Below are positions 1 to 44,355 of a DNA stretch of 64,000 nt, piece after piece. The DNA comes from Methanobacteriota archaeon (GTDB lineage: Archaea > Thermoplasmatota > Poseidoniia > Poseidoniales > Thalassarchaeaceae). Positions within the stretch are counted from its first letter, which is position 1, and the number at the start of each line of letters is the position of its first letter. The position numbers and the translations under genes were made by a program. The stretch lies in NCBI GenBank assembly GCA_019654055.1, contig BPDA01000003.1:161-64160 (forward strand), written 5' to 3'. A model generated the notes under the pieces. The model saw nothing but the letters and a program-made list of their open reading frames with translations, searched no databases and was not told the DNA's origin.

Positions 1-860
1 AGACGCTGTACCTAGATTGGGAGGCCGAGCCCTACACCCTGACCTATGAGGTGGGCAAGTTGGTCGTCATAGATGGCACCATAGGGAGCGATGGCGAGGA
101 GTGGTGGATCGAGGGGGATGCCCCGACCGACCGGCTCTGCATGCTCCCGTCCTCCGAAGACTTGGCTGACGACATAGTGGGTCAGTCGGGGGACTGGGGA
201 GGCAGGCTGGCATGGTCCACTGACGAGGCCGAGGTATGTCTCGACCGAGGCTACGTCGAGGCCCTACAGCACCCCGCAGGCCAGTTCGGCGACGATCTCA
301 TGACGATGAAGGAGGTGGTCGAGGACCCGTTCGCCCACGTGGGCAACAGCTACCAGTTCGAGGGCTGGATCACCGATCCAATCTCGCCGGACTATGACAA
401 GGGATATGTCGGTGACGGGCCAGGCTACTACGACAGGGACACCAAACTCAGGATAGAGTTCGTCGGCGAGCACGCGGAGTGGATTGAGGCCGATCAGGCG
501 ATTCGGTTCAATGCCACGGTGCTGTGGTCGGAGTCTGAGGGCAGGATCGTCCTGGAGGCGCGGTCATGGCTGCTCGGGGAGGCGCCGGCGCCGTCTGTGC
601 TCAACTGGGGCGATGGCTACAACTCGTGGAGGTGGGACATCGGCAAGCTGGTGCAAATCACTGGCGAGGCGGTGATGGATGAGGACGGTAGCCAGTGGAT
701 TTCACGCTCCGGCTCAGATGAGAGGGTCTGCCTGCTGGGCGACGGTACCGAGGCCAGCCAGCAGGAGCAAATCGGCGAGCCCATCGAATGGACCGGTCGT
801 CTGACTATGACCGAGGACTCGATAGGTAACTCGGCGCAATTCTGCATCGACATACGCTGA
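1..860 (+). CDS. hypothetical protein, 5' end outside window; internally repeated module
   Basis: The frame of the listed 51..860 ORF stays open back to base 3 (TLYLDWEAEPYTLTYE), so the GTG at 51 is probably internal. Two similar modules are present (GKLVVIDGT...WGGRLAW...VCLD and GKLVQITGE...WTGRLTM...FCID). No family recognised. Confidence 0.5.
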   Translation, partial: TLYLDWEAEPYTLTYEVGKLVVIDGTIGSDGEEWWIEGDAPTDRLCMLPSSEDLADDIVGQSGDWGGRLAWSTDEAEVCLDRGYVEALQHPAGQFGDDLMTMKEVVEDPFAHVGNSYQFEGWITDPISPDYDKGYVGDGPGYYDRDTKLRIEFVGEHAEWIEADQAIRFNATVLWSESEGRIVLEARSWLLGEAPAPSVLNWGDGYNSWRWDIGKLVQITGEAVMDEDGSQWISRSGSDERVCLLGDGTEASQQEQIGEPIEWTGRLTMTEDSIGNSAQFCIDIR

Positions 861-869
861 GGTGATTCA

Positions 870-2525
870 ATGGACCCCTGGGTGCTGGACTTCGGTTGGC
901 TGATTGGCTCCTACCTGTTCGGCATCATGCTGGGCTGCCTGACCGGTCTGATTCCCGGGTTCCATGTCAACAACGTGGCCTTAATCGCATTGAGTCTCTC
1001 TCCTGTTGCAGTCGCCATAGGGATCCCTCTGGATGCGGTGGCAGGAATCATCGTGGCCTGCGGCACTGTGCACACATTCCTGAACTACATCCCGAGCGCC
1101 CTCGTGGGAGCTCCTGACGACAACATGGCGCTCGCCCTGCTGCCTGGGCACCGCATGCTAATCTCAGGGCAGGCCGCACAGGGGGTCGCATACTCGGCTC
1201 GTGGCTCGCAGATGGGCATGCTGATGTCCATTCCCCTGCTAATCGTTGCGAGGTTGCTGTTCGGAGAGGATCCTGGACTAGGCCTGTATGAGTCCAGCCG
1301 CGATGTCCTCCCCTGGCTGCTACTAATTATCTCGATATTCCTAATCATGACCGAAACGACCAGATTGGCGTGGCCGGAGTGGAGCCAGCGTCTGACCAGC
1401 AGGCTCGTCTTACCTCTGCCGCGCAAGATCGAGTTCAACATACCAATTGGGAAGTTCAACATCCACCGCAGATGGGAGAACCTAGACCTGAGACTGGGCA
1501 GCAGCTCGAGGACCGCAGGGATGCTCGCTGCGACTTTCTTCTTCCTGCTCACAGGATTCTACGGCTGGGCTGTGTTTGAGCTGCCCGGTCGCTCGCCAAT
1601 TGGGATGCCATCAGCCACCCTGCTATTCCCAGGCCTAGCCGGTCTGTTCGGGATAGCCAACCTAATCGACATCTACGTCACGACCTCGGAGATCCCTCCT
1701 CAGGAGGCCAACTGGGAGATGCCTCCGATGAAGCCGCTCGCAATCCCGACTTTCCTGTCCGCGATCGTCTCCTCAGTGATGGCCATCCTACCCGGGATGA
1801 CTGCCGCTCAGGCGACTGTGGTAGTCATGAGTATGCGCAACCTCTGGGGTAGGCTGACAGACCCCGACTACATCCCTGCAGACTTCGAGCACGGCATCCA
1901 GCCGGGCTTCACGCCGAAGGCATCGCCGCTGGATGTGGATGACCTCGACGAACTCTCGGACGAGGAGAGGGAGATCTTTGAGGAAGTCCTGACCGAGGCC
2001 GGAGTCAGTCCCGACCTAGACCTAGGGGCCCAGAGCCAGCAGCAGGACCTCGAAGTCATCGCGGTGCTATCCTCGGTGAACACCGCTGTCACGGTGATGG
2101 TCCTAGGTTTCCTATACATGGTCGGCAGGCCGCGCTCGGGGGCCGCGCTGGCACTCAACATGATGTATCCCATCGACATGTGGAACGCCGTCGAGCCCCC
2201 AGCTGATTTCATCAGACTGTTGGGAATCACAATTGCCTCTGGTCTGTTCGCGGTTCCGGTTATGATCAAGGTCGGCAAGGGGATGCTTAAGATGCACGAA
2301 ATTGTCCCCCTGAGGACGCTGGTATTCTCAGTCACCGGATTCATCGCGATTCTGGTCTGGCTATCCACCGGGTGGATAGGGCTTGGAGTCCTAATCATCG
2401 GAACTGCGATGGGTCTGATGCCGCCTCGGATAGGCATCCGGCGCAGCCACGCGATGGGGATTATACTAGTCCCGATAATGATGTACACGTTCGCGCGAGA
2501 ATTCGACGGATTCGGCTTCATATGA
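870..2525 (+). CDS. polytopic membrane protein, TctA/DUF112-like transporter family (tentative)
   Basis: 551 aa with many hydrophobic segments. The N-terminal GCLTGLIPGFHVNN resembles the PG motif of TctA/DUF112 proteins. Contains an acidic loop DVDDLDELSDEEREIFEE. Starts 9 nt after the upstream stop. Confidence 0.45.
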   Translation: MDPWVLDFGWLIGSYLFGIMLGCLTGLIPGFHVNNVALIALSLSPVAVAIGIPLDAVAGIIVACGTVHTFLNYIPSALVGAPDDNMALALLPGHRMLISGQAAQGVAYSARGSQMGMLMSIPLLIVARLLFGEDPGLGLYESSRDVLPWLLLIISIFLIMTETTRLAWPEWSQRLTSRLVLPLPRKIEFNIPIGKFNIHRRWENLDLRLGSSSRTAGMLAATFFFLLTGFYGWAVFELPGRSPIGMPSATLLFPGLAGLFGIANLIDIYVTTSEIPPQEANWEMPPMKPLAIPTFLSAIVSSVMAILPGMTAAQATVVVMSMRNLWGRLTDPDYIPADFEHGIQPGFTPKASPLDVDDLDELSDEEREIFEEVLTEAGVSPDLDLGAQSQQQDLEVIAVLSSVNTAVTVMVLGFLYMVGRPRSGAALALNMMYPIDMWNAVEPPADFIRLLGITIASGLFAVPVMIKVGKGMLKMHEIVPLRTLVFSVTGFIAILVWLSTGWIGLGVLIIGTAMGLMPPRIGIRRSHAMGIILVPIMMYTFAREFDGFGFI

Positions 2526-2602: not shown

Positions 2603-5386
2603 GTGCATACCATGAACCGTAAATCGATAGCAATGATGCTCACAGGAATAATCCTAGTCAGTCTAAACATGTTCGTCCTGACCGGGGTAGTCGCAAGCAA
2701 CGTCCAAGCCGGAGTCGGGGAACTGATTGTCGCCGACAGAGATGGAGTGATAGAAGATGGTCAGGAAGAGCCGGACAAGTGGGAGAGAGATGATTGGCTA
2801 GTACAGACCTCCGAGAGAGCCTACTTCGCCTACAACCTGACGGACACAGATTGGCGAAACAGTGGACATGATGTCCCACCTTTCGAGAAGATGGGGCCAT
2901 TCATCTACACGGTCACCACGACCAAGGATGTTCTAGACTTCGACCCTGAGGGTGGCACCATCACCTACTCGGAGTACGACTCGTTTGATTGGTGCGAGAA
3001 TTGCACGTGGGTAGATGAAGAAGGCACCCCGCACGCATCGGTCTCGGGAGACTACGAGTTGACGAATGCGAACATCCTCTGGAACACGCAGAGGATGGCT
3101 GGAGTGGCCACCGGGATAACCTACGGCGAGATATTTGCTAAGGCTGGATTCACTCAGATGATGCTAATCAACGACATGCAGAACAGGGCGCCCAGCATCT
3201 GGGCAGCCAGCCAGATTGGCATGATGGTCCCCGGGGCATCACAGGCACTCCAGGATGCTGGCTACGACGAGGCAACCGCCGACGCCATGGCACCGGCTGC
3301 AGTCCTTAGGGGCTCGTATGACAACTGGCTCGCGCAGAGCGGCGCCAGCGACGTCGGCCCCGACTTCGCCGCATCCGCGCAGAGCATCTTGTATGATGCG
3401 GTCGACCCATCGACTGGGATTTGCATAGCGCTGACATGCGACATAGGGCCCATGCTGGTTGCTGGAATGGGGGAGCCTAGTGAAGCTACGACCTCCTCAC
3501 GCGCCGCGCTTCTAGGATACGCAAGCACCGACCCCGAGGAGCTTGCACACATCGACTGGGCTGTGTACGCACTGGCCGGGACGATCTTCCAGTCACAGGG
3601 CGGCGGGGAGGACCTCTCAACCCTATCCAACGCGTCCTTGCGCGCGAGACTGGCGGAGGTCAGCGGAGTCGATATAGCCAACCCAGTGGCCTTGAACAAC
3701 ATTCTTTGGGGAACCGAGGGCTCGAGCCCGAACAACGGAATCCTTTCCGTTTCGGACTTCCAGGGAATCCCTCTATACGGGGTCGCGCTGTTCCTGCTAG
3801 GTGCTCAGGGCGACGTCTTCGGAACGATGCTTACCTACGGCATTGGGCTGACCCAACTGATGGGTCTCGCCTATGACTGGGCAGGGATTTGGATAGACAT
3901 GGTTGGAGGCGTTCCGCTTGAATTCGAGATGATTCTTGTGGGAGGCTCCGGGACAATGGACGCCAATGCTTGGTGGCAGCACTCGTTCGGCTCCGAGGAG
4001 CCGATTGCCGGAGGATACATCCCAATCGGCCTTAACAGGGGTGATTTCGCTGGCACAGTCGATCTGACCCTTGATCAGGTGCGCGACATCCTGTATGATT
4101 CGGATTACGCACTGACCGGTGACTTCGCTACGGCGTTCGTCTACGGGGAGTTCTCAGGATCCTCCCTACCGGTTGGGTCGGAGGGGCCTGTCATGGGTGG
4201 TGACGTGCATACTTGGGACGATGCCTACGTCGCGGGACTATACGGTATCTCAGAGACAGATGCAGCCGCCCTGAAGAGCTGGGTCAAGGACTTCATGTTC
4301 GAACAGGTTGTAGGGGCTCTGCTAGCATTCCAATATGGCGCTTCAGCATATACCACGCAGCCAATTCATAACTGGCTCTATGGGTGGAGCGATCCCGTAT
4401 TGGTTGGTCTTTATGGGGAGGAGAACAGCTGGGTCAAACTCGAGACCAACGAGACCTACTACGGGTCCGGGGGGAAGAGCACGGGGGACTTCTCGGTCTA
4501 CCAGATGAAGATACCAACCAGCGTTGACGGGTTGAGTACGGCCGAGCACGCCTTCATGGAGGGTTACATCAACTCCGACGGAGACGGGTTGTGCGACTTC
4601 AAACTCGATGCCGCCGGCAACGCCGAATATGGAGTCGAGTGCGAGGCCAACGAGACCTACGGGATGACGGAGCACCTACCGTGGAGGGCCCCTCACAGGG
4701 AAGCTAGTGTGTATGGGCTACTCTCCGACCACGTCGGAAATTCCAACACTGAGATTACTGGGACCATAGGCGGCATTGCAGACGCCGACGAGCCATTCAG
4801 TGTCAATCTAGTTGGATACTCAATAGCACAGACCGAAGTGGGTGAGACCGTGACCTACAAGGGAATCGAGATGGTCGAACATCACGTTGCGCTGGACCCC
4901 GCCGAGAACCAGATCCAGGCCAAGTTGGTTGGATTCAGCTTGGGTGAGGTAGCGGTCCTTCCCGGGGCTCTGCCAGTCTACTTCGGTTCAAGTGTTGACA
5001 TCAAGGTCGAGCCGGTGACCAACGTCGCGATGTACGGCAAGTCGGTTTCTAGATTCTACCTCGACCTCAGATGGGCGGGTGCGATGAACCCTGACTTCAC
5101 CGACGCTGACGGCGACGGCGAGCCAGACGATTGGCAGACGCAGCCGGTATTTGAGATTCACACCTTCAGCGAGATTGGTGATGATGATGCTGCCTCGTTC
5201 AAGTGCACTGTGATTGACCACATGAGTTCTACTTGGTGGACTGACTTCGGTGGCGAGGGCGACTGCGAGCTTGAGGCTTTGACTACCTTCTCATACATCG
5301 CAGCGCTACTCTACGTCGCTGGAATCGGTCTAGCCGTCTACGGTGGCATGGGCCTGATTGCGACCTCCAGAGAAGAAGAGGTATAG
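2603..5386 (+). CDS. CD36/LIMP-2/SR-B-like ectodomain protein with N- and C-terminal TM anchors
   Basis: 927 aa. An N-terminal TM (IAMMLTGIILVSLNMFVLTGVV) and a C-terminal TM (FSYIAALLYVAGIGLAVYGGMGLIA) bracket a large ectodomain. Colinear CD36-family-like blocks are present (YFAYNLTD..GPFIYTV..GGTITYSEY; NWLYGWSDPVL; PVFEIHTFSEIGDDD). Confidence 0.6.
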   Translation: MHTMNRKSIAMMLTGIILVSLNMFVLTGVVASNVQAGVGELIVADRDGVIEDGQEEPDKWERDDWLVQTSERAYFAYNLTDTDWRNSGHDVPPFEKMGPFIYTVTTTKDVLDFDPEGGTITYSEYDSFDWCENCTWVDEEGTPHASVSGDYELTNANILWNTQRMAGVATGITYGEIFAKAGFTQMMLINDMQNRAPSIWAASQIGMMVPGASQALQDAGYDEATADAMAPAAVLRGSYDNWLAQSGASDVGPDFAASAQSILYDAVDPSTGICIALTCDIGPMLVAGMGEPSEATTSSRAALLGYASTDPEELAHIDWAVYALAGTIFQSQGGGEDLSTLSNASLRARLAEVSGVDIANPVALNNILWGTEGSSPNNGILSVSDFQGIPLYGVALFLLGAQGDVFGTMLTYGIGLTQLMGLAYDWAGIWIDMVGGVPLEFEMILVGGSGTMDANAWWQHSFGSEEPIAGGYIPIGLNRGDFAGTVDLTLDQVRDILYDSDYALTGDFATAFVYGEFSGSSLPVGSEGPVMGGDVHTWDDAYVAGLYGISETDAAALKSWVKDFMFEQVVGALLAFQYGASAYTTQPIHNWLYGWSDPVLVGLYGEENSWVKLETNETYYGSGGKSTGDFSVYQMKIPTSVDGLSTAEHAFMEGYINSDGDGLCDFKLDAAGNAEYGVECEANETYGMTEHLPWRAPHREASVYGLLSDHVGNSNTEITGTIGGIADADEPFSVNLVGYSIAQTEVGETVTYKGIEMVEHHVALDPAENQIQAKLVGFSLGEVAVLPGALPVYFGSSVDIKVEPVTNVAMYGKSVSRFYLDLRWAGAMNPDFTDADGDGEPDDWQTQPVFEIHTFSEIGDDDAASFKCTVIDHMSSTWWTDFGGEGDCELEALTTFSYIAALLYVAGIGLAVYGGMGLIATSREEEV

Positions 5387-5477: not shown

Positions 5478-8400
5478 ATGAGTGTACGCCCTAGGCGCTG
5501 TGCGGCGGCGCTCTCGCTGGGCATCTTGATGCTGATGTCGCTGTCGCCGGTCCTGATTGACGGACTTGGCGGAACGGGACCTGCAAGAAGCGCCTCCAAC
5601 CGCTCCACGAACTGCTCAGCGATATGCATCAACGAGATGATGCCCAACGCCGACGGCTCCGATCAGGGTGTGTTCCCGAACGGGGAGTGGGTCGAGCTGC
5701 ACAACTCGGGCTCAGTGGGCATCAGCCTTGAGAGTTGGACCCTTGAGGATGTCGGCGGCTGGATTCACCCAATCGATTCGTCAACCTGGGTTGGTTTCGA
5801 CCAGCTCCCCAATCCATACGTCATTTCAGCTGGCTCCTACGTCGTAATCGCCGAGAACGAGGTCGGCACCCTGAGGCTGAACAACGCAGGCGAGACGCTG
5901 TACCTCAAGGATGCCAGCGGGGCCATCATCCACACAGTGACTACCGGCGAGGCATCCAACGGGATCTCGAAGATTCCCACTGCTGATTCATCTGCGGATT
6001 GGGTCGACTCAGAGGAGAACACCCCCGGGGCTGAGAACTCCGAGGGGACAGGTGGTGGCGGAGGAGAGACAGGGGGGACTCCCTACGATCTCACTCGGGT
6101 GATGATGATGCCGAGCGGGGCCGAGGTCACTGGACTGCATGTCAACTCACTGGGTAATCTGTTCGTCAACGCGATGCACCCCGACGATGATTACTACGAT
6201 GCCACGGTCGGGGTGGTCAACGGGGTTGATTGGAATGCCCTTCCGGATGTGGTTCCTGAGCTCGAGCTTTCCAGTAGCGAATGGGATGTCTGGCATGGCG
6301 TAAGGGTGTCTCACGGAGATTACCAGGTGCTCGTGCAAAGCGGTGATGGGCTGTCCGAGGGGGGTGTTGCAGGGGGTATCTACGCTGTCGATGACGGTGA
6401 GCTCCTGTTCACCAGCCAGAAGCCAGACTTCAACGCCTTCGTCCCCCTGAACCCACAGGGCACCAGAGGCTATCTGTACACTACCTGGGAGAGTCGGCCT
6501 GCAGGGGTGAGTCAGCTCTTGATTCAGTGGAACTCGGCCTCGGAGGAATGGGACGTCCTAGGTGGCTTGATGCAGGACCTCAGCGGGATGAACGGTGGAT
6601 GGGTGCTGTGCTTTGGCTCAATCAGCCCGTGGGGCACTCCACTTCTCTCCGAAGAGCTCTACTTCGCCGACACAGAAAACTGGAACGACCCCGGTTACCA
6701 TTATCACTCAGACCAACAGGAACTGGCCGATTACTTGGGCTACTACCCCAATCCATACGATTACGGTTGGATCGTTGAGATAGAGGATGCGGATACGCCG
6801 ACGCCGACCTTCGAAAAGCAACTCTCGATGGGCAGATTCTCACACGAGAACGCTCAGGTTATGCCCGATCAGAGGACGGTGTACCTGTCTGACGACGAGT
6901 ACGGGACGGTGCTGTTCAAATTCATGGCTGACACGCCAGGTGACCTAGAATCGGGTACCTTGTATGCTGCTAGGGTCACACAGGACTTAGGAAGTAATCC
7001 CGCTACCACTGGGTTCGACGTTCAGTGGGTGGAGTTGGCTTCATCCAGCGATTCTCAGATTGAGGCTTGGATAGACGAGTATGATGGCATCACCACTGCG
7101 GATTTCGTCGATGGTGAGAACTCTTACATCTCCAATCAGGAGATCAACGACTGGGCCGAGGGAATCCTAGACGACGATTTGGATGGTGACGGCGATGTCG
7201 GTTCGGCAGTCGACGACAGGGTCGCATTCCTCGAATCAAGGAAGGCTGCCGGAGCCATCGGGGCCACCGACGAGTGGAACAAGATGGAGGGAGTTGTCTT
7301 CAACCCCGCAGCACCTGGTTACGTGTATCTGGCAATGTCGGACATCCGATACGACATGAGCGACTCGCAAGGAGACATCAGGCTGTCCGAGAACCGCTGC
7401 GGGATAGTCTACAGGATGCCGGTTGAGGACGACTGGGATGTCAGTCGGATTGAGCCGGTTATCGCTGGTGGAACCTACTCATCCGGCTCGTGCGACCCGA
7501 ACCGAATAGCCGGACCCGACAACCTAGCTGTGCTCGATGATGGCAGGGTCCTAGTGGCCGAGGACACCGGCAAGCACGACAACAACATGCTATGGCTCTG
7601 GGATCCTCCCGTCGAGCCGACCGAATGGGACGGCGAGTACGACGTGAAGTTCACCCGCATCATGCCTGCAGAGGTCCCGGACAGGGACAACGACTGGTTC
7701 GAGTTGACCAACACGGGGGACTCGGTTGTCAATCTGGCTGGCTGGACCATCGAACGCATCCGCTCGACCGAACCCTGGGTATCTATGGTCAACGATCTAA
7801 CAATCGATGCAGGTGCGTCAGTGGTGCTGACCGAGAACCCAGCCAACCTACTCGCGGACGGGGGCATCGAGGCCCTCGATGGCAACGTCGTGCTGAACAA
7901 CATGCCCTGGTTAGTTGACTCCGGCAGCGCCCTGCAGCTGAAGGCCCCCGACGGCACCGTGGTGGATGCCATAGCCTTCGGCGGTGGAATCGCCGAGATT
8001 AATGGCTGGCAGGGCGCTGCCGTGTCAGTACCCGGAGATGGGACACCTGGGCTCATCCTGATGCGCGGCGGCGGCTGCGGAGACTACCCCGACACAGATA
8101 CCGGGTCGGACTGGGAGCAGCGATGGATTAGGATTGGCGCCTCGACCTTTTGTGATGGAGGGCACTTCACGACAGGAGCAGCCTCGTCCGTATCCGCCTC
8201 AATAGGCCCAGATTCGGCCTTCAACGACTTGAAGCAGTGGATTGAGGCTGCCGAGAGTTCCATCCACCTGCACGTCTACCAGTTCATGAGCCCCGATCTG
8301 ACCCAAACGCTCCTCGATGCGATTGCCAGAGGGGTCGAGGTGACGCTGCTGCTTGAAGAAGGGATTCTCGATGGCAGCAGCACGGTCAACAACCAGAGGG

Positions 8401-10052
8401 GGCACGCACAGACTCTGCATGATGCGGGTGCGACGGTTCTCTGGATGGAGGACCCTACTCAGATCAGTTCGCCTTACGCGTTCATTCACAGCAAGGTGGC
8501 TGTCAGAGACTCTGAGAGCGTGTGGATCTCGTCTGGTAACTGGAAAGACACCAGCGTGCCTCCCGATGGGGTAGGCAACCGCGAGTGGTCAGTGATATTG
8601 AACTCCCAAGCCGCTGCCGAGTTGGTCCTGTCCCGGATGGCATGGGACGAGAATGCTCAGCATCTGCACATCTTCCCTCACTCGTCTTGGCACGCTCCGA
8701 CTTTCGACTGGACCATGGAGGAGCCGTGGCACGAGGGCGAACTGACGCCCATCGAGTACCATCAGGGTCCGTTCGATGCCCAACTCCTGACTTGTCCTGA
8801 TGACTGCGTCACGGGCATAGTCTCGATGATCGAATCAGCGCAGCAATCAATCGAACTTTCTGTGCAGTATTTGGATCTGGACTGGTACTGGGGCTTCGGT
8901 GAAAACCCAATCATTGCTGCTCTCCACGATGCAGCGCAGAGAGGCGTAAGCATACGCCTGATGCTGAACGGATTCTACGCAGAGTGGGACGAAGAGATTC
9001 GCGATGCCATCCACATGTTCAACACGGATTGGAACGCGACCGAGGGGCTCGATGCCACGGCGCGGCTGATGGCCTACTCCGACACCATCGTCAAACTGCA
9101 CAACAAGGGCGCCATCATCGATGGCTCAAGTGTTCTCGTTGGAAGCATGAACTGGGGTTCAAGTGCGGCATTGAGGAACCGCGAGATGGGTGTGCTGATC
9201 CACCATCAGGGGCTCGCCGCTGAATACTCTGCCTCCTTTGAGGAGGACTGGAACAGATTGGATCCGACTACCGACTCAGACGGTGACTTGCTCCCGGACC
9301 AGTGGGAGGTCGAGTACGGGCTCAACCGGCACTCTGCGGCCGTCCTCGGTACAGCCCTCAGCGAGCAGTCTCTGGACCCTGACGAGGACGGGTTGAACAA
9401 CCTCGAGGAGTTCCAGTTGAACGGGGACCCGTTGTCCAATGACACCGACGGCGACTGCATACCCGACGGTGAGGAGTCGGCATTCGCGCAAAGCGTACTC
9501 CGCTCGCCCTCATTCGCCATGACTTCCGGAGACGTGGACGAGAACGGCGTACCAGACGGGGAGCAGTACGGCTGCCAGACCATAGTGGACGGAGGCGGGA
9601 CCGGTGGCGGGGATGACGGTGAGGCAGGAGGTAACGACTCAGTGGAGGAAGAGCCCGACGACGGCTTCCTCAACATCAGGGAAGATCCGCTATCTAGGCC
9701 GGGGGCGAAATTCCTGTTCTGGTTGATGGTCATTTCCACGATATCACTGGCTCTGGCCGGAGCCTCGATGTTCCTGCAGCCCCGCAAGGGTACAGACGAG
9801 GTTCTCGTCGACGACTCCGGCTACAAGTTCGACGACCCGGACTCCAGTCTGGCGATTCTCAAAGGGACCAGTTTTGACGAAGGGGCAGAGGACGCGCGCG
9901 CGCGAAAGGAGGGGCGAGATGACGGCTCGCACGGCTCCATCAGACTGGATGGTTTCGGATTCGAATCCTCCACGCGTGACGAGGTCCAGTGGATGCTAGA
10001 TCAGGGGCACACGATGGATGAGGTTCGCGCCGAGCTCGGAGAGGAGGAGTGA
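5478..10052 (+). CDS. giant anchored ecto-phosphoesterase: LTD - PhoX/DUF839-like phosphatase - LTD - PLD-superfamily (2x HKD) - TSP3-like repeats - TM - cytoplasmic tail
   Basis: 1524 aa with an N-terminal signal/TM. Two lamin-tail-domain-like segments (CINEMMPN..GEWVELHNSG; FTRIMPAEVPDRDNDWFELTNTG). PhoX-like core (MGRFSHENAQVMPDQRTVYLSDDEYG; PDNLAVLDDGRVLVAEDTG). Two HKD motifs (FIHSKVAVRDSESVWISSGNW; KLHNKGAIIDGSSVLVGSMNWG). D-rich repeats (DSDGDLLPD, DPDEDGLNN, DTDGDCIPD). C-terminal TM FLFWLMVISTISLALAGASMFL. Confidence 0.8.
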   Translation: MSVRPRRCAAALSLGILMLMSLSPVLIDGLGGTGPARSASNRSTNCSAICINEMMPNADGSDQGVFPNGEWVELHNSGSVGISLESWTLEDVGGWIHPIDSSTWVGFDQLPNPYVISAGSYVVIAENEVGTLRLNNAGETLYLKDASGAIIHTVTTGEASNGISKIPTADSSADWVDSEENTPGAENSEGTGGGGGETGGTPYDLTRVMMMPSGAEVTGLHVNSLGNLFVNAMHPDDDYYDATVGVVNGVDWNALPDVVPELELSSSEWDVWHGVRVSHGDYQVLVQSGDGLSEGGVAGGIYAVDDGELLFTSQKPDFNAFVPLNPQGTRGYLYTTWESRPAGVSQLLIQWNSASEEWDVLGGLMQDLSGMNGGWVLCFGSISPWGTPLLSEELYFADTENWNDPGYHYHSDQQELADYLGYYPNPYDYGWIVEIEDADTPTPTFEKQLSMGRFSHENAQVMPDQRTVYLSDDEYGTVLFKFMADTPGDLESGTLYAARVTQDLGSNPATTGFDVQWVELASSSDSQIEAWIDEYDGITTADFVDGENSYISNQEINDWAEGILDDDLDGDGDVGSAVDDRVAFLESRKAAGAIGATDEWNKMEGVVFNPAAPGYVYLAMSDIRYDMSDSQGDIRLSENRCGIVYRMPVEDDWDVSRIEPVIAGGTYSSGSCDPNRIAGPDNLAVLDDGRVLVAEDTGKHDNNMLWLWDPPVEPTEWDGEYDVKFTRIMPAEVPDRDNDWFELTNTGDSVVNLAGWTIERIRSTEPWVSMVNDLTIDAGASVVLTENPANLLADGGIEALDGNVVLNNMPWLVDSGSALQLKAPDGTVVDAIAFGGGIAEINGWQGAAVSVPGDGTPGLILMRGGGCGDYPDTDTGSDWEQRWIRIGASTFCDGGHFTTGAASSVSASIGPDSAFNDLKQWIEAAESSIHLHVYQFMSPDLTQTLLDAIARGVEVTLLLEEGILDGSSTVNNQRGHAQTLHDAGATVLWMEDPTQISSPYAFIHSKVAVRDSESVWISSGNWKDTSVPPDGVGNREWSVILNSQAAAELVLSRMAWDENAQHLHIFPHSSWHAPTFDWTMEEPWHEGELTPIEYHQGPFDAQLLTCPDDCVTGIVSMIESAQQSIELSVQYLDLDWYWGFGENPIIAALHDAAQRGVSIRLMLNGFYAEWDEEIRDAIHMFNTDWNATEGLDATARLMAYSDTIVKLHNKGAIIDGSSVLVGSMNWGSSAALRNREMGVLIHHQGLAAEYSASFEEDWNRLDPTTDSDGDLLPDQWEVEYGLNRHSAAVLGTALSEQSLDPDEDGLNNLEEFQLNGDPLSNDTDGDCIPDGEESAFAQSVLRSPSFAMTSGDVDENGVPDGEQYGCQTIVDGGGTGGGDDGEAGGNDSVEEEPDDGFLNIREDPLSRPGAKFLFWLMVISTISLALAGASMFLQPRKGTDEVLVDDSGYKFDDPDSSLAILKGTSFDEGAEDARARKEGRDDGSHGSIRLDGFGFESSTRDEVQWMLDQGHTMDEVRAELGEEE

Positions 10053-11329
10053 TGTCCGAGGCGATTCGCCGCCTCGTTCAAGGCGTGGTTGACGGTTCGC
10101 TGTCCGATGACGAGTTGGCCGAGTGGCTGCGTGACGTATTCGACGAAGGGCTCTCCGAGCAGGATACGGTAACCCTGACTGAAGCGATGCGGGACTCGGG
10201 CGATGTCCTGGAATGGAGCTCCGATATCTCTGATCTAGTGGTCGACAAGCACTCCACAGGGGGAGTGGGTGACAAGGTGTCGCTGGTACTAGCCCCCGCC
10301 CTAGCATCGTGCGGTCTGAAGGTGCCTATGATCTCGGGCCGGGGGCTGGGCCATACCGGAGGAACACTGGACAAGCTGGAGAGCATCCCGGGGTTCAGCG
10401 TGGAAATGGGGATCAGCGGCATCCGCGAGCAGGTCGAGGGCATCGGCGTCGCCATGGTCGGCCAGAGCGACGCTCTAGTCCCTGCAGACCGTCGCATGTA
10501 CGCCATGCGCGACGTCACCGGGACGGTGGCGTCGATTCCCCTGATTACTTCCTCAATCGTATCCAAGAAGGCGGCTGAGGGGCTGTCTGCGCTGGTACTG
10601 GACGTCAAGTTCGGCCGGGCCGCCTTCATGCCCGAGCGCGAGCATGCCGAGGAATTGGCGCGCTCGCTCGTCGATGCCGCAAACGGCATGGGAATCGCGA
10701 CCACGGCGGTGCTGACTTCGATGGAGCAGCCCCTCGGCTGCGCCATAGGCAACTCGCTGGAGGTCCTCGAGAGCGTCGAGACGCTGTGCGGAAGGGGTCC
10801 CGAGGACCTCGAAGAGTTGGTCTGCGTGCAGGGCGGCCTACTTCTGCAAGCCACTGGGCTTGCAGCTGGCTTCGAGGCCGGGGCGGTGATGATTCACGAT
10901 AGTCTGCATGACGGTTCAGCATTCCAAAGGTTTCGCGAGATGGTGCAGGCCCAAGGGGGAGACGCCTCGGTCCTCGACAGCGACGCTTCGCTGACGCGGG
11001 GGCTGGGGCTGATGGGTCCGGAACTGAACACCACCGAGCTGTCATCTGGCTCGGCGGGTTGGGTTGAGGACATCGATGCCATGGCAATCGCCACGGCATG
11101 CTTGGGGCTCGGTGCTGGAAGGACCAGATTGGGAGACATAGTCGACCGTGCGGTGGGTGCCATCCTCGAGGTGCAGGTCGGGGACCGATTGGAGGTGGGG
11201 GAGCCATGGATGGTCCTCTACCACCGCGGTGAGATGGACAGGGGGGTCTTGGAGGGGCTTCTGGGTTCAATCACGCTCTCCGACGAAGAGGTAGTCCCCA
11301 AATCGAGGATAGCAGAGGTGTTTGAATGA
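10049..11329 (+). CDS. deoA: thymidine/pyrimidine-nucleoside phosphorylase
   Basis: 426 aa with family motifs DKHSTGGVGDKVSLVLAP and GRGLGHTGGTLDKLESIPGF. It lacks the N-terminal extension of archaeal AMP phosphorylase. The GTG start overlaps the upstream TGA (GTGATG). Confidence 0.85.
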   Translation: MMSEAIRRLVQGVVDGSLSDDELAEWLRDVFDEGLSEQDTVTLTEAMRDSGDVLEWSSDISDLVVDKHSTGGVGDKVSLVLAPALASCGLKVPMISGRGLGHTGGTLDKLESIPGFSVEMGISGIREQVEGIGVAMVGQSDALVPADRRMYAMRDVTGTVASIPLITSSIVSKKAAEGLSALVLDVKFGRAAFMPEREHAEELARSLVDAANGMGIATTAVLTSMEQPLGCAIGNSLEVLESVETLCGRGPEDLEELVCVQGGLLLQATGLAAGFEAGAVMIHDSLHDGSAFQRFREMVQAQGGDASVLDSDASLTRGLGLMGPELNTTELSSGSAGWVEDIDAMAIATACLGLGAGRTRLGDIVDRAVGAILEVQVGDRLEVGEPWMVLYHRGEMDRGVLEGLLGSITLSDEEVVPKSRIAEVFE

Positions 11330-12168: not shown

Positions 12169-12396
12169 CTGGAGTTTCTCGAGCCGGCAGGTCGAATCAC
12201 GCTCACGATCTACGTCGCTCACTTCGCCGTCCTCGGAGCGGTTGCGTCGGCGATGCAGGGCGAACCTCGGCTGGAGCTCGTCCCGGCTTTCGCTGCGACC
12301 ATCGCCCACACCCTGATCTGGATTCCCCTAGCGGTCTGGCACCAGAAGCACATCCCCGAAGTCTCGTTGGAGTCCATGTTGAGGAGACTCAGTTAG
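12169..12396 (+). other. in-frame continuation of the DUF1624 gene after the TAG codon
   Basis: My translation in the same frame gives LEFLEPAGRITLTIYVAHFAVLGAVASAMQGEPRLELVPAFAATIAHTLIWIPLAVWHQKHIPEVSLESMLRRLS, then TAG at 12394-12396. It is hydrophobic and family-like (G-R-x-x-L-x-I-Y-x-x-H) and has no start codon of its own. Confidence 0.55.
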
Positions 12397-15262
12397 GCGT
12401 CACCGAAATCGGACCGAACCACACCTCGCCCTCTTCGTTGGACGCCATTATGCGGACGTAGTGGGTGCCGCCATCGCTTGTGAAGCTAATCTCGGCCGCA
12501 CCGGAACCGACCTGTGGCGTACCCACGCTGACGCTGTATGGCCAGAGCTGGGAGTTGTTGCCCATGTCGGTCTGACCGTAGTAGACAGTAAGGGATGTGT
12601 TCGTACCGTTGTCATAGACATCCCAAGTGACATCCGCGGTGCTGCTGGTGATGTTGGCAGTGCTCAGGTTCCTGAGAATAGCGTCGTAGGCGTGGTACTC
12701 TCCGCGTAACGGGTCTTCGACCCAGACAGGGAGGTGCTCGAGCGCATCGAAGGTGGCTTGGGTGAGTGGGAAGCCCCATGCCGCGTGATAGGGGGCTAGG
12801 TTGTACCCCGTGGCGTTCGAGACATGCAGCACCCATGCGTTGAACTCCTCTGTGTCGCCTACTGGCACTTCGGCGGAGGGCAAGGTGTAGTAGACACTGA
12901 GTGCCTCCGTAATTGGATCCCATCCCCACTCCTCCTTGATGATCAGATACGTGTCGAGTGCTATCCAAACGGACCAATTGGAGATGTTGGAGCCGTCGTC
13001 GAAGTAAGCGCGCATACGTGATGCTCGCTGTACTGGGTCGACCGCCCCGTGACCCTCGACCCCGACCAGGTCTTCCATCAGGTAGACGCTGGCGAAGTTG
13101 CATCCCGTCTCGGTAGTACCGGGCAGTGTGGAAGGCATCCACTGGTGGTTGTGGCCGAGCTCGTGGAACATGCCCCAATCGCCGTTCTCGGACATGTATG
13201 AGACATTGACCACTCCGGCGACGCTCAGGTCGTGCGCCATGAACGGATATCCGGAGTGCATCCAGCCAGCAGATATCTGTGCATCGAAGACTGCCCTCTC
13301 TACCCTCGGCCACGGCGTGTAGCCGTAGAGTTCATGCTCCATCCCTAGAGCCTGATCCCACCAGTCCATCAGGTCCTGGGGGTTGTCTAGGTCCCTAATC
13401 TCGTGGCTCGGGACAGTCAGAATGAACTGGTCGCTGCCAATCTCTGCCCACGGCGCCGGGTCGTGACGGTACTGCTGCAGCCACTGGAACACATCGGTCT
13501 CGCCGTGTATGTACCTCGGGGCCTTGACCGCGTTAGAGACGGTGATGTCGAAGTCACCCAGGATGGAACCAGCTTGGATGCCGATGTATATCGGGCCGCC
13601 GAAGGCGTTGCCGACCTCCATAGTGTCCTCGTCGACGTACCACCACCTGACAATCTGCGGATGCCGGTGGAGCTGGCTCTTGCCCCAAAGGCTGTCGCTG
13701 TGGGCACCAACCAGGACGTACGTGCCGGAGTCAACTACCTCGGCAGGCAGGGTCACGGTCACGACCTCGCCTGGGGCAGCATATAGGCCGGTGGTCATCC
13801 TGACGTGGGATCTGGCCTGAGAATATCCAAAATTGCTTGGAAGCCCACTCTGGTTGCCATCTATAGACATGGTCCGGGATATCCTAGTGGCGTTGGCGGG
13901 GACCTCCCCGGGGAACTCGACATGACTCGGGTGAACGGGTAGCTCGCTGGCGGCTAGGCCCTGTGTCAGGGCGGCCTCCACCCTAAGGAGCGTGTCTGCG
14001 ACCGGGTCCTCTCCGAGGTTGTGCCCAACATTCTGCCACAGGGTGCCATACTGGATTACCGTCCATCCCGTTACGTTGACTGTCTCCCTAAGTGGCCCCC
14101 AAAAGCCATCGAAGTCCAGAGCCACGACACCTGTGCACGATGACAGGGTGGCGTCGGCGATTGCCGCATCTTCGACCGAGAGGGTCTGATTGTCGATCCT
14201 GTCAGCTCGGATCGCCTCTATCGCGGCCTGCGGTCGAGTCAGTTCGTGAGGTACCACTCTGAAGTCGACGGTGTTGTACCCCCATGCATGTGACACGAAC
14301 AGCCCGGTGGTCTTGGCTATCTTGTTGCCGGGGTAGTTGTGCGAAACGTCGCTGTTGGAATATGACCAATACCATGCGTGACCCCCCATGATGAGGCCGC
14401 CGCCATCCAGCATGAAATCGATCAGGTTCAGATTGTCTTGGTCGTCATGGCCATTCCAGAACTCGTCTAGCAGGCAGTCTATCCCCGAGAGGTCCGCAGG
14501 AGTGACCGATAGGTGTACCGTGTGCCCTTCGCCCTGCAGCTCGTCCTCAAAGTCATCATAGCCCGCTCCATAGGCGAGCCCCACGTCCGCGTTCTCGCCG
14601 CAGACCCACTCGACTGCGCGCAAGGAGAACTCGGTCTCCTTGACGCCAGCGCCGTCGACCCAGCTCTCGTGGCCGTACCCGAGCATCTTGCCCCTACCTA
14701 CATGGCTGCCGGAGATTACTGGAATGGTTGAGCCGTAGCCCTCCTCGGCGAAGCCGACCGGGAATGCCCACTGCCCGATTGGCAGAACCGGAGAGGGCCA
14801 GCCACCCCAGTTCGTCTGCCCCATTCCTCTCAGCAGGTCGGACTGGTCGGCTGCGAGGTCGTGCACCGCTATCCACAGGTTCAGCCCTGCCGCCCCTCCG
14901 GTGTTGTTAGCCCAAATCGTGTACTCTATCCACCCGGTACGCTCGTCGGGGGTGCCAGTAATGCTGCCGTTGGATAGTAGGATTAGTCCGGAGGGCAATG
15001 CGGGGCTGACCTCCCAGGTGTCAATGTCAGGTCCGTCGTTGGTGGCCGGGATGAGGATGCTCTCGTTGGCCTCCAGCGCAAACTCCAATCCGGGCCATGA
15101 GATAGCATCAGGGGGCAGGCTGGTAATCCTGAACTGTAGCGTCGTGGAGGCGGGGCCGCCGGAGTTGTTGGCCCAGACGGTGTGATGAGTCCATGGCTGC
15201 AGCAGCGTTGCAGTGCCACTGACCTGCCCGGTGTAGTGGTCGAACGCGAAACCCGAGGGCAA
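12389..15262 (-). CDS. M60-like (enhancin-like) zinc metallopeptidase with He_PIG Ig-like repeats and C-terminal FN3-like domain; C-terminal fragment of a split gene
   Basis: HExxH in MFHELGHNHQW within an M60-like context. Ig-like repeats LPSGFAFDHYTGQVSGT and LPSGLILLSNGSITGTP. FN3-like tail (ADVTWDVYDNGTNTSLTVYYG). The listed TTG start lies inside a repeat and has no signal peptide. The frame is open upstream to about 15366. Confidence 0.75.
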   Translation of the reverse strand: MPSGFAFDHYTGQVSGTATLLQPWTHHTVWANNSGGPASTTLQFRITSLPPDAISWPGLEFALEANESILIPATNDGPDIDTWEVSPALPSGLILLSNGSITGTPDERTGWIEYTIWANNTGGAAGLNLWIAVHDLAADQSDLLRGMGQTNWGGWPSPVLPIGQWAFPVGFAEEGYGSTIPVISGSHVGRGKMLGYGHESWVDGAGVKETEFSLRAVEWVCGENADVGLAYGAGYDDFEDELQGEGHTVHLSVTPADLSGIDCLLDEFWNGHDDQDNLNLIDFMLDGGGLIMGGHAWYWSYSNSDVSHNYPGNKIAKTTGLFVSHAWGYNTVDFRVVPHELTRPQAAIEAIRADRIDNQTLSVEDAAIADATLSSCTGVVALDFDGFWGPLRETVNVTGWTVIQYGTLWQNVGHNLGEDPVADTLLRVEAALTQGLAASELPVHPSHVEFPGEVPANATRISRTMSIDGNQSGLPSNFGYSQARSHVRMTTGLYAAPGEVVTVTLPAEVVDSGTYVLVGAHSDSLWGKSQLHRHPQIVRWWYVDEDTMEVGNAFGGPIYIGIQAGSILGDFDITVSNAVKAPRYIHGETDVFQWLQQYRHDPAPWAEIGSDQFILTVPSHEIRDLDNPQDLMDWWDQALGMEHELYGYTPWPRVERAVFDAQISAGWMHSGYPFMAHDLSVAGVVNVSYMSENGDWGMFHELGHNHQWMPSTLPGTTETGCNFASVYLMEDLVGVEGHGAVDPVQRASRMRAYFDDGSNISNWSVWIALDTYLIIKEEWGWDPITEALSVYYTLPSAEVPVGDTEEFNAWVLHVSNATGYNLAPYHAAWGFPLTQATFDALEHLPVWVEDPLRGEYHAYDAILRNLSTANITSSTADVTWDVYDNGTNTSLTVYYGQTDMGNNSQLWPYSVSVGTPQVGSGAAEISFTSDGGTHYVRIMASNEEGEVWFGPISVTPN

Positions 15263-33836: not shown

Positions 33837-33907
33837 CGCCCTAGCGCGTAGCGCTCGGGCGACCGGTGCATTGAACAACCGACCGTATTCGTCCGCGGTC
33901 GCGAGGC

Positions 33908-34255
33908 TTGCCCATGACCGGACTCAGGAACGTCCCGATGCTGATGATGGTCACTCTGATGGTGCTAGCACCGCTGTCTGGATGCCTGTCGTTCATTACC
34001 GGAGACGATTCGGATGATGACGGGTACACTTGGGTGGACCCGGTGGTCGAGATCGAGGATGCCAATCACTCGCACAACGACATGTTGGCTCACAGACTGT
34101 ACACTCCGAATGCGAGGCTAATCGACTACCACAACCTCAACTGCGATGGTGAGGTCAAGCCTCCTGCGGACCTTGACAACACCGCTGGTCGCCCTTGCTA
34201 CCCCGAGTGGAAGAACGTCGGCCCGACTCCGGGGACAACTCTGAGATTGCAATAG
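33908..34255 (+). CDS. LVIVD-repeat lipoprotein, N-terminal fragment
   Basis: Signal/lipobox LMMVTLMVLAPLSGC. EDANHSHNDMLAHRLYT parallels DEGHDHRNASQHMMYT of the upstream paralog. The frame breaks at the GGGG run 34231-34234. Confidence 0.65.
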   Translation: MPMTGLRNVPMLMMVTLMVLAPLSGCLSFITGDDSDDDGYTWVDPVVEIEDANHSHNDMLAHRLYTPNARLIDYHNLNCDGEVKPPADLDNTAGRPCYPEWKNVGPTPGTTLRLQ

Positions 34256-44297: not shown

Positions 44298-44355
44298 CGC
44301 TGTCCCTCGGTCATTTCGAACCGATGGTCCGATATCAAGTAGCGCCCGGGCGTGG

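What the first reader, a model, noticed from the sequence alone, without database searches (positions are those of the whole stretch)
2603..5386. CD36/LIMP-2/SR-B-like protein, with the family's two-TM hairpin topology, in an archaeal genome
Seen: one N-terminal TM and one C-terminal TM bracket an ~860-aa ectodomain. Four sequence blocks occur in the same order as in metazoan CD36-family proteins as I recall them. Block 1: ERAYFAYNLTD..PPFEKMGPFIYTVTTTKDVLDFDPEGGTITYSEYDSFDW versus LIMP-2 VYTQFYFFNVTNPEE..PRVEEVGPYTYRELRNKANIQFGDNGTTISAVSNKAYVF. Block 2: QPIHNWLYGWSDPVLVGL versus TVDELLWGYKDEILSLI. Block 3: VTYKGIEMVEHHVAL versus LKGIPVYRFVLP. Block 4: PVFEIHTFSEIGDDDAASF versus PVMYLNESVHIDKETASRL. 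About 400 extra residues are inserted between blocks 1 and 2. Established: the CD36 family comprises eukaryotic scavenger receptors and lipid/fatty-acid transporters with a hydrophobic tunnel through the ectodomain. Inference: this could be a lipid-uptake device of a lipid-degrading planktonic archaeon. An acyl-CoA dehydrogenase lies in the window and a PLD-family ectoenzyme is the next gene. It would either be a deep homolog or a transfer from eukaryotes.
Basis: partly seen in the sequence, partly recalled or inferred. Interest (0 to 1): 0.85.

Follow-up and report, generated by a model that had tools for sequence, protein, structure and literature searches.

The report
Archaeal CD36-like membrane protein
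A surface protein of an abundant marine archaeon is a real but very divergent relative of the animal CD36/LIMP-2 lipid receptors, carrying a large extra helical domain on top, so this supposedly eukaryotic family also exists in archaea.

Summary
ORF 2603..5386(+) encodes 927 aa (more likely 924 aa, from ATG 2612) with two terminal TM helices around an ~860-aa ectodomain. Pfam CD36 scores above its gathering cut-off, but only for residues 47-132. Profile comparison extends the homology to both halves of the domain. The family matches Asgard-archaeal CD36 proteins (hhalign E 2.5e-27; N half 4.7e-18, C half 2.9e-11), and those match LIMP-2/CD36 structures at ~1e-67. An AlphaFold2 model (pLDDT 83.5) has LIMP-2/SCARB2/CD36 as its 13 best PDB matches. 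An ~385-aa helical insertion sits where mammalian members carry their ligand-binding helix bundle, and it matches nothing known. The family occurs in 312 species-level genomes, and the best 80 are Poseidoniales (Marine Group II). It is old in that order, not a recent eukaryotic transfer. The lipid-uptake idea is plausible by homology but untested, because the tunnel could not be examined. The context argument is weak: the PLD neighbour is lost in divergent clades and looks more like a nuclease/phosphatase, and the acyl-CoA dehydrogenase is 54 kb away. NCBI already names some members "CD36 family protein", but I found no paper on them. Verdict: new variant of a known kind.

The parts
2603..5386 (+). 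Gene for the CD36-like membrane protein (927 aa from GTG 2603; more likely 924 aa from ATG 2612)
   Evidence: ORF list. The 100%-identical database protein P0001 is 924 aa. Pfam CD36 scores above its gathering cut-off.
2624..2698 (+). N-terminal transmembrane helix (residues ~8-32), preceded by a short basic tail (NRK)
   Evidence: Kyte-Doolittle 19-residue window up to 2.17. Modelled as a helix.
2741..3103 (+). N-terminal part of the CD36 domain (residues ~47-167), with the YxxYNLT and EKMGPFIY hallmark motifs
   Evidence: Pfam CD36 profile positions 30-112. LIMP-2 chain residues 4-86. hhalign against Asgard CD36 gives E 4.7e-18.
3104..4270 (+). Lineage-specific alpha-helical insertion of ~385 aa (residues ~168-556), at the position of the apical helix bundle of LIMP-2/CD36
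   Evidence: No counterpart in Asgard, eukaryotic or PDB sequences. pLDDT is 90-97 and the region is mostly helical. It is as conserved as the core. It has no significant Foldseek match of its own.
4271..5242 (+). C-terminal part of the CD36 domain (residues ~557-880), with the NWLYGWSD, GTxGG, KGI, VEPVT and PVFEI...DDDAxxFK motifs
   Evidence: hhalign against Asgard CD36 gives E 2.9e-11 over 266 columns. LIMP-2 chain residues 121-163 align to profile positions 545-588. Foldseek aligns ~350 of ~390 LIMP-2 residues.
4520..4702 (+). Secondary clade-specific insert within the C-terminal core (residues ~640-700; DGDG motif and the Cys664/Cys680 pair)
   Evidence: Gapped against Asgard CD36 in hhalign. 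Absent or shorter in divergent Poseidoniales members such as P0124. Lower conservation, 0.46.
5279..5362 (+). C-terminal transmembrane helix (residues ~893-920), followed by a 7-residue tail
   Evidence: Hydropathy 1.6-1.9. Modelled as a helix at 894-926.

Best explanation
The gene encodes a divergent archaeal member of the CD36/LIMP-2/SR-B superfamily. Shown: it is anchored in the cytoplasmic membrane by one helix at each end, with both short tails inside the cell. Its ~860-residue ectodomain is a CD36-type beta-barrel whose sequence is split by a ~385-residue compact alpha-helical domain. That domain is inserted exactly where mammalian members carry the three-helix bundle that binds their ligands. 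The protein is a conserved gene of Poseidoniales (Marine Group II archaea). Inferred from what the family does in eukaryotes and what its structural relative LmcA/PgfA does in mycobacteria: the helical head captures a hydrophobic cargo or a cargo carrier outside the cell, and the barrel shields the cargo as it passes between the head and the outer face of the membrane. The cargo could be free fatty acids, or lipids from particles or vesicles. Uptake is the likelier direction, because the organism has a single membrane and belongs to a heterotrophic lineage. The cargo and the direction are not shown.
For: Membership and anatomy:
- Pfam CD36 scores 29.8 bits against a 26.5-bit cut-off, and all 22 relatives hit it.
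- More divergent relatives reach E 1e-19 with two matched stretches.
- hhalign of 24 family members against 6 Asgard CD36 proteins gives probability 99.75 and E 2.5e-27. Each half is significant alone: N E 4.7e-18, C E 2.9e-11.
- The Asgard profile hits LIMP-2 (4q4b) at 3.5e-67 and CD36 (5lgd) at 4.9e-66. By plain hmmsearch it also hits the MGII proteins at ~1e-14.
- The AF2 model has pLDDT 83.5 and pTM 0.77. Its 13 best PDB matches are all LIMP-2/SCARB2/CD36, at Foldseek probability 1.00. The next match is LmcA.
- Two terminal TM segments and short tails.
- The insertion is as conserved as the core.
- The family occurs in 312 species-representative genomes.

Function by analogy:
- LmcA/PgfA, a CD36-like barrel with lipid cavities, acts in lipid trafficking in mycobacteria (PMC8972800, PMC9678360).
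Against: - No direct evidence for a tunnel.
- Foldseek TM-scores are modest (0.34-0.40 per target, rmsd ~9 A).
- The model's alignment included Asgard CD36 proteins, so the model is not fully independent of the homology claim.
- The PHF motif and the LIMP-2/CD36 disulfide cysteines are not conserved.
- There is no conserved neighbourhood with lipid-metabolism genes. The context differs completely between clades.
- Mammalian family members also act as pure binding receptors, as LIMP-2 does for glucocerebrosidase.
Confidence: 0.55

Rival explanations
1. The protein has the same fold but works in the opposite direction. It would be an envelope-building lipid exporter or chaperone, like mycobacterial PgfA/LmcA. 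It would hand membrane-derived lipids or lipid-linked glycans to structures outside the membrane, such as S-layer anchoring, lipid-modified surface proteins or vesicles.
For: The only characterised prokaryotic relatives of this fold, LmcA/PgfA, act in outward lipid or lipoglycan trafficking. LmcA is the next-best structural match after CD36/LIMP-2. On the core tree the MGII clade groups with compact archaeal forms that hit the PorA/PgfA models. The gene is order-wide, with 312 species-level genomes carrying a relative, as expected for a housekeeping envelope function.
Against: Poseidoniales have a single membrane and no mycomembrane-like target layer. No envelope-biogenesis genes are consistently adjacent. 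The large apical head resembles the ligand-capturing end of the eukaryotic receptors, and LmcA lacks such a head.
Confidence: 0.2
2. The protein is a non-transport surface receptor or adhesin. The helical head would bind a protein, polysaccharide or particle surface, with the barrel serving only as a stalk. This resembles LIMP-2 binding glucocerebrosidase and CD36 binding thrombospondin or PfEMP1.
For: The insertion lies at the family's ligand-binding apex. It is a large, well-folded and conserved domain with no lipid-binding homology. The window and related genomes are rich in surface proteins with adhesion-type domains: He_PIG, TSP3, LVIVD and M60.
Against: The barrel core is as conserved as the head, which argues against a mere spacer. 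Keeping both TM anchors holds the barrel's base at the membrane, as in the lipid-transferring members.
Confidence: 0.17
3. The gene is a recent horizontal acquisition from a eukaryote, or is eukaryotic contamination, rather than an archaeal lineage of the family.
For: The family is best known from eukaryotes, and planktonic archaea live among protists.
Against: The gene lies in a normal archaeal chromosome segment with TFIIB, the PolD small subunit, tRNAs and uniform GC. Relatives occur in 312 species-level genomes, down to 27% identity within the order. Identity to eukaryotic members over the core is only ~18%, lower than to any archaeal group. The split (MGII+compact) versus (Asgard+eukaryote) has 98/100 bootstrap support.
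Confidence: 0.04
4. The resemblance to CD36 is chance similarity in a large beta-rich ectodomain.
For: The direct single-sequence hit to PDB LIMP-2 is weak (E ~1), and Pfam covers only 86 residues.
Against: The Pfam score is above the curated threshold in every member. The two halves are independently significant in profile-profile comparison and are collinear. The fold search returns only family members at the top. The topology is identical.
Confidence: 0.01

Closest known systems
Metazoan CD36 / LIMP-2 (SCARB2) / SR-BI scavenger receptors class B (Pfam PF01130; structures 4F7B, 4Q4B, 5LGD)
   Same: Two-TM hairpin with short cytoplasmic tails. Both halves of the ectodomain are collinear with the family. 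Shared motifs are NxT-rich FYxxN(L/V)T, E(E/K)xGP(Y/F)xY, (E/N)(L/W)L(W/Y)G(Y/W)xD, GTxG, (K/Q)G(I/L), (V/I)(E/N)P(V/L)T and PV...(I/E)xDxxAxxxK. The predicted barrel gives these structures as its top 13 PDB matches.
   Different: Only ~18% identity over the core. A ~385-aa helical domain is inserted at the apical helix bundle, and a second ~60-aa insert lies in the C-terminal half. The PHF motif and the canonical disulfide cysteines are absent, and four other local Cys pairs are present instead. The host is archaeal. The tunnel and lipid transfer are untested.
Asgard-archaeal CD36-family proteins (e.g. MBD3340896.1, Lokiarchaeota; Promethearchaeota, Hermodarchaeota and Hodarchaeota MAG proteins) and protist homologs (Dictyostelium, Percolomonas)
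   Same: These are archaeal or long-form members with a large insertion at the same apical site. Sizes are 235-470 aa in Asgard, ~320 aa in the protists and ~385 aa here. Profile-profile E is 2.5e-27.
   Different: The Asgard and protist proteins are far closer to LIMP-2/CD36 (E ~1e-65 to 1e-89) and keep the PH(F/L) motif. Their insertions show no detectable similarity to the MGII insertion. They fall on the other side of the deepest split in the core tree.
Actinobacterial LmcA / PgfA (MSMEG_0317; DUF3068 = Pfam 'PorA' PF11271; structures 7N3V, 7SHW)
   Same: A prokaryotic, membrane-anchored, extracytoplasmic CD36-like asymmetric beta-barrel with internal cavities, implicated in lipid trafficking. 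It is the next-best structural match, at E 0.08 and probability ~0.9. Compact archaeal relatives of the window protein hit both the CD36 and the PorA/PgfA models.
   Different: LmcA is ~300 aa and lacks any apical helical bundle or head. The window protein has no direct sequence match to the PorA or PgfA models.

Membership tests
CD36 family (Pfam PF01130; scavenger receptor class B) | Significant match to the curated family profile, above the gathering threshold | tested here: met
   29.8 bits against a 26.5-bit cut-off, E 2.8e-7, residues 47-132 only. 22 of 22 relatives match, best E 1.9e-10. Divergent members reach 1e-19.
CD36 family (Pfam PF01130; scavenger receptor class B) | Homology across the whole ectodomain, with N- and C-terminal halves collinear, not just one motif block | tested here: met
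   hhalign against Asgard CD36: N half E 4.7e-18, C half E 2.9e-11 over 266 columns, whole protein E 2.5e-27. The Asgard set matches LIMP-2/CD36 structures at ~1e-67 over both halves.
CD36 family (Pfam PF01130; scavenger receptor class B) | Hairpin topology: one TM helix at each end, short cytoplasmic tails, large extracytoplasmic loop | tested here: met
   The only strong hydrophobic segments are at residues 8-32 and 893-920, and the tails are ~7 residues each. Both are modelled as helices. Orientation is inferred from the basic N-tail, not measured.
CD36 family (Pfam PF01130; scavenger receptor class B) | Asymmetric antiparallel beta-barrel fold of the ectodomain | tested here: met
   AF2 model with pLDDT 83.5. 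Foldseek PDB ranks 1-13 are all LIMP-2/SCARB2/CD36, probability 1.00, with ~350 of ~390 target residues aligned. TM-scores are only 0.34-0.40. This is a prediction, and the input alignment included Asgard CD36 proteins.
CD36 family (Pfam PF01130; scavenger receptor class B) | Apical three-helix bundle as the ligand-binding head | tested here: inconclusive
   The helix that aligns to the LIMP-2 bundle helix (SWVKDFMFEQVVGALLAF against EWSQVHFLREIIEAMLKAY) is present. Long helices at 168-218 and 551-578 flank the insertion. The bundle geometry could not be inspected without coordinates.
CD36 family (Pfam PF01130; scavenger receptor class B) | Continuous, largely hydrophobic tunnel or cavity through the ectodomain | not testable with these tools
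   Model coordinates are not exposed to the scripting environment, so no cavity analysis was possible.
CD36 family (Pfam PF01130; scavenger receptor class B) | Family-typical conserved cysteines/disulfides in the C-terminal half and the PH(F/L) motif. These are typical of eukaryotic members (my knowledge of the LIMP-2/CD36 structures) but are not part of the Pfam definition. | tested here: not met
   The cysteines are at residues 131/134, 274/279, 664/680 and 868/888, and none lies at the LIMP-2 positions. The PHF/PHLL position aligns to IQAKL.
CD36 family (Pfam PF01130; scavenger receptor class B) | Binding or transfer of lipids (fatty acids, cholesteryl esters, phospholipids) | not testable with these tools
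   This needs biochemistry. The genomic context gives no consistent support.
LmcA/PgfA (DUF3068, Pfam PorA PF11271; NCBIfam NF053601) | Significant match to the PorA or PgfA profile | tested here: not met
   The window protein has no PorA or PgfA hit. Only the compact archaeal relatives P0224 and P0240 and some Asgard proteins hit them. LmcA is a structural match at E 0.08.

The most novel reading that the evidence does not exclude
The CD36 superfamily is an ancient archaeal invention, not a eukaryotic one. One branch, the Asgard long forms with an apical insertion, gave rise to the eukaryotic scavenger receptors, and the protist long forms keep that ancestral architecture. A second branch, in Poseidoniales, evolved its own novel helical head. 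That head serves as the main lipid or fatty-acid capture device of one of the ocean's most abundant heterotrophic archaea.
Probability: 0.3. Interest if true: 0.85.

Novelty: new variant of a known kind. Interest (0 to 1): 0.62.

Why it matters
CD36, SR-BI and LIMP-2 are medically important lipid receptors, generally treated as a eukaryotic family. This gene shows an order-wide archaeal lineage of that family with a new ligand-binding head. The search it prompted uncovered Asgard-archaeal members that match LIMP-2/CD36 at ~1e-67. Together these make two questions testable. The first is where the eukaryotic lipid scavenger receptors came from. The second is how uncultured Marine Group II archaea, long proposed to live on lipids and proteins, take hydrophobic substrates across their surface. 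The ectodomain is a defined, expressible target for structure determination and lipid-binding assays.

Tried and rejected
- **Shallow alignment for structure prediction.** A first AF2 run used 22 close relatives (at least 58% identity). It gave pLDDT 49 with the CD36 parts unmodelled, so I discarded it. Adding divergent Poseidoniales, Asgard and compact sequences fixed this.
- **Direct sequence or profile search of PDB.** Only weak LIMP-2 hits appeared (E 0.07-1). They are suggestive but insufficient alone.
- **Origin of the insertion.** There was no Pfam, NCBIfam or PDB-sequence match. There was no similarity to the Asgard or protist insertions and no internal repeat. Foldseek found no significant PDB or BFVD match other than the barrel.
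- **Gene neighbourhood as functional evidence.** Synteny TctA - CD36-like - LTD/PLD - thymidine phosphorylase holds at 57-60% identity. It vanishes at 33-43% identity, where the neighbours are a Xdh/Cox-type molybdoenzyme, HTH_10 and ArsP. I rejected it as evidence.
- **Phylogeny.** The first attempt timed out, and the second saturated Kimura distances and included insertion columns. Only the p-distance NJ on 382 core columns was used.
- **Literature.** Searches for CD36 with archaea, Marine Group II, Poseidoniales, Asgard or eukaryotic signature proteins found nothing relevant. Two recent Asgard papers do not mention the family.
- **Tunnel analysis.** Not possible, because no coordinates were available.
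Full report
**1. The observation**

The window carries an ORF at 2603..5386 on the + strand that encodes 927 aa. A 100%-identical database protein is 924 aa, so translation probably starts at ATG 2612 rather than GTG 2603. A 19-residue hydropathy scan finds only two strong hydrophobic segments, at residues ~8-32 and ~893-920. The tails at either end are about 7 residues long, which leaves an ectodomain of ~860 residues. The eight cysteines form four local pairs: 131/134, 274/279, 664/680 and 868/888.

**2. Is it CD36-like?**

Pfam's CD36 model (PF01130) scores 29.8 bits against a curated cut-off of 26.5 (E 2.8e-7). The match covers only residues 47-132, which correspond to profile positions 30-112 of 463. 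All 22 aligned relatives hit the same model, with a best E of 1.9e-10. More divergent family members reach 1e-19 with two matched stretches.

Searches of PDB sequences with the single protein or with a family profile return almost only LIMP-2/SCARB2 chains. These hits are weak (E 0.07-1). They fall in two collinear pieces: query ~28-111 to LIMP-2 chain 4-86, and query ~545-588 to chain 121-163.

The decisive bridge came from an exhaustive profile search of 1.84 billion representative proteins. Besides divergent full-length relatives, it found 740-984-aa proteins that match Pfam CD36 at 1e-63 to 1e-89 in two stretches. These proteins come from Lokiarchaeota, Promethearchaeota, Hermodarchaeota and Hodarchaeota MAGs. 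One lies on a 504-kb contig among ordinary archaeal genes.

- A profile of six of these Asgard proteins matches LIMP-2 (4q4b) at 3.5e-67 and CD36 (5lgd) at 4.9e-66, over both halves of the domain.
- Profile-profile comparison of 24 members of the window protein's family with that Asgard set gives probability 99.75 and E 2.5e-27.
- Split by region, residues 1-180 give E 4.7e-18 and residues 541-927 give E 2.9e-11 over 266 columns. Residues 181-540 match nothing (E 0.07).
- The Asgard profile also recovers the MGII proteins directly, at ~1e-14 in a 5.8-billion-sequence database.

Not everything is conserved. The PH(F/L) motif aligns to IQAKL, and none of the cysteines sits at the LIMP-2/CD36 disulfide positions.

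**3. Structure**

A first AlphaFold2 run on 22 close relatives failed for the CD36 parts (mean pLDDT 49), but it already modelled the insertion confidently as helical. I then used 43 sequences that included divergent Poseidoniales, Asgard and compact forms. That model reached pLDDT 83.5 and pTM 0.77.

Foldseek against the PDB returned LIMP-2, SCARB2 and CD36 ectodomains as ranks 1-13. E-values ran from 1.7e-5 to 2e-3 at probability 1.00, with ~350 of ~390 target residues aligned. The next match was Mycobacterium smegmatis LmcA (E ~0.08). Nothing else was significant. TM-scores are modest, at 0.34-0.40 per target. The input alignment contained Asgard CD36 proteins, so the model is supportive but not independent evidence.

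Foldseek aligns locally, so a known fold in the insertion should have produced its own hit. None appeared in PDB or BFVD. Model coordinates are not exposed, so the tunnel could not be examined.

**4. The insertion**

Residues ~168-556 are a compact, mostly alpha-helical domain with pLDDT 90-97. Across 24 Poseidoniales sequences it is as conserved as the CD36 core: the mean majority-residue fraction is 0.55, against 0.56-0.59 for the core. It has no internal repeat. It has no Pfam, NCBIfam or PDB-sequence match.

It has the expected 478 aa and aligns normally with the homologs. The insertion site corresponds to LIMP-2 residues ~140-145. From my knowledge of the LIMP-2 and CD36 structures, this is the start of the apical helix bundle that binds glucocerebrosidase in LIMP-2 and PfEMP1 in CD36.

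Asgard proteins carry insertions of 235-470 aa at the same site, and the Dictyostelium and Percolomonas homologs carry ~320 aa there. The three sets of insertions are not detectably related to one another. A second, smaller insert at ~640-700, with a DGDG motif and a Cys pair, is specific to the window protein's clade.

**5. Distribution and origin**

- A scan of one genome per GTDB species found 312 loci encoding a relative. The best 80 are all Poseidoniales, mostly Thalassarchaeaceae/MGIIb. Two short contigs in bacterial-labelled bins are probably misbinned.
- The closest species representative is Ca. Thalassarchaeum betae, at 76% identity.
- Within-family identity falls to 27%.
- The divergent clades are also labelled Poseidoniales or Thermoplasmatota.
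- The window itself is an ordinary archaeal chromosome segment. It holds TFIIB, the PolD small subunit, HMG-CoA synthase, PheRS, glycine-cleavage genes and five tRNAs, and its GC content is even.

Over 382 columns shared with LIMP-2, the MGII clade is ~18% identical to eukaryotic members and ~20% to Asgard members. It is ~24% identical to compact 522-534-aa forms found in archaeal gene contexts. A neighbour-joining bootstrap supports MGII monophyly at 100/100. It supports the split (Asgard + eukaryotes) versus (MGII + compact forms) at 98/100. The tree is crude, with p-distances and only three eukaryotic sequences, but it argues against a recent eukaryotic origin for the MGII gene.

The compact forms hit both the Pfam CD36 model and the PorA/DUF3068 model, and they also hit NCBIfam's PgfA model. 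This links the archaeal proteins to the actinobacterial LmcA/PgfA lipid-trafficking proteins, whose CD36-like barrel is published (PMC8972800, PMC9678360).

**6. Context**

In relatives at 57-60% identity the gene order is conserved:

- unknown protein
- TctA-type permease
- CD36-like
- LTD/PLD protein
- thymidine phosphorylase
- acyltransferase
- M60 peptidase

In clades at 33-43% identity the neighbours are instead a xanthine-dehydrogenase/Cox-type molybdoenzyme, an HTH_10 regulator and ArsP. The PLD adjacency is therefore lineage-level synteny, not a functional module.

The neighbour itself (5478..10052, 1524 aa) combines LTD, PhoX and two PLDc_2 domains and has a C-terminal hydrophobic anchor visible in its translation. 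It is followed by thymidine phosphorylase. This looks at least as much like extracellular nucleic-acid or phosphate scavenging as phospholipid hydrolysis. The acyl-CoA dehydrogenase lies 54 kb away.

**7. How it most likely works**

Shown: the protein is a membrane-anchored hairpin with a CD36-type ectodomain and a conserved, novel helical head at the family's ligand-binding apex.

Inferred: the head captures a hydrophobic ligand or its carrier, and the barrel passes it to or from the outer face of the membrane. This follows what CD36 and SR-BI do, and what LmcA/PgfA is proposed to do. I rate this general mechanism at about 0.55, with uptake favoured over export. The rivals are export or envelope building (0.2) and a pure binding receptor or adhesin (0.17). 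Recent transfer from eukaryotes (0.04) and chance similarity (0.01) are effectively excluded. Membership in the CD36 superfamily I rate at about 0.95.

**8. Novelty**

Databases already flag the similarity. The Pfam hit is precomputed, and NCBI names some members 'CD36 family protein'. I found no paper that describes CD36-family proteins in Marine Group II, Poseidoniales or Asgard archaea. The gene is best called a new variant of a known kind: a genuine CD36-superfamily member with a lineage-specific head domain, in a domain of life where the family has not been discussed. The Asgard members that surfaced along the way may be the more consequential lead.

Noticed in passing
Loci/proteins P0257, P0233, P0239, P0244, P0249, P0264, P0281-P0296; L090:8001-10511: Asgard archaea (Loki-, Prometh-, Hermod- and Hodarchaeota) encode CD36-family proteins that match LIMP-2/CD36 structures at ~1e-67 and Pfam CD36 at up to 1e-89. 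One is on a 504-kb archaeal contig, and one MAG has two tandem paralogs. On a crude core tree they group with eukaryotic members (98/100). No paper I could search mentions them, so they may be an unlisted eukaryotic-signature-type protein.
   Followed up: partly
P0297 (Percolomonas), P0298 (Dictyostelium purpureum), Asgard proteins, window residues 168-556: Long-form CD36 proteins in protists, Asgard archaea and MGII all carry large insertions (235-470 aa) at the same apical site (LIMP-2 ~138-217). The three sets of insertions show no detectable sequence similarity to each other. The site is either an insertion hot spot or holds a fast-evolving ancestral head.
   Followed up: partly
P0224 / L091:8001-9569 and L091:3701-5365; P0240 / L092:62-1666: Compact (522-554 aa) CD36-like proteins in archaeal gene contexts hit both Pfam CD36 and PorA/DUF3068, and also NCBIfam PgfA. 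This bridges the eukaryote-type family and the actinobacterial LmcA/PgfA lipid-trafficking proteins. One contig has two paralogs 2.6 kb apart.
   Followed up: partly
window 5478-10052 (+): This 1524-aa surface protein combines LTD, a PhoX-like phosphatase region, a second LTD and two PLDc_2 domains, with a C-terminal hydrophobic anchor. Its orthologs in related genomes (L001, L004) are 1014-1029 aa and lack the PhoX part, so this lineage gained a domain. It is followed by thymidine phosphorylase (10049-11329), which suggests nucleic-acid or phosphate scavenging.
   Followed up: partly
window 2603-2614: The ORF as listed starts at GTG 2603, but the identical database protein is 924 aa. That fits a start at ATG 2612 (MNRKS...).
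   Followed up: partly
L073 (NYYT01000082.1, labelled Pedosphaera sp.) and L089 (PBPC01000098.1, labelled Gemmatimonadetes bacterium): Two MGII-type CD36-like genes (45-50% identity to the query) sit on short contigs in bins labelled as bacteria. This is most likely misbinning of Poseidoniales contigs rather than bacterial homologs.
   Followed up: no
window 51-860 (+) and 870-2525 (+): The ORF at 51-860 has no Pfam match. It is probably the 3' part of a conserved 519-538-aa protein of unknown function that precedes the TctA-type permease in all Thalassarchaeaceae loci examined. The start of the window cuts it off.
   Followed up: no
window 12389-15262 (-), 15367-16383 (-), 17801-19945 (+), 26489-28735 (-), 32091-35868 (+), 44230-46485 (+): The window has a dense set of large predicted surface or secreted proteins: an M60 enhancin-like peptidase with He_PIG, an He_PIG protein, TSP3-repeat proteins, a 748-aa EF-hand protein and two LVIVD-repeat proteins. 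This fits a particle- or polymer-oriented lifestyle.
   Followed up: no
window residues 274-285 of the target protein (nt ~3422-3457): C-I-A-L-T-C-D-I-G-P-M-L is among the most conserved stretches of the insertion (invariant or nearly so across the close relatives) and the only stretch in the ectodomain whose hydropathy exceeds the 1.5 cut-off. Its Cys pair is replaced by Ser/Thr in divergent clades. Its role is unknown; it could be a lipid-contacting loop or a structural staple.
   Followed up: no
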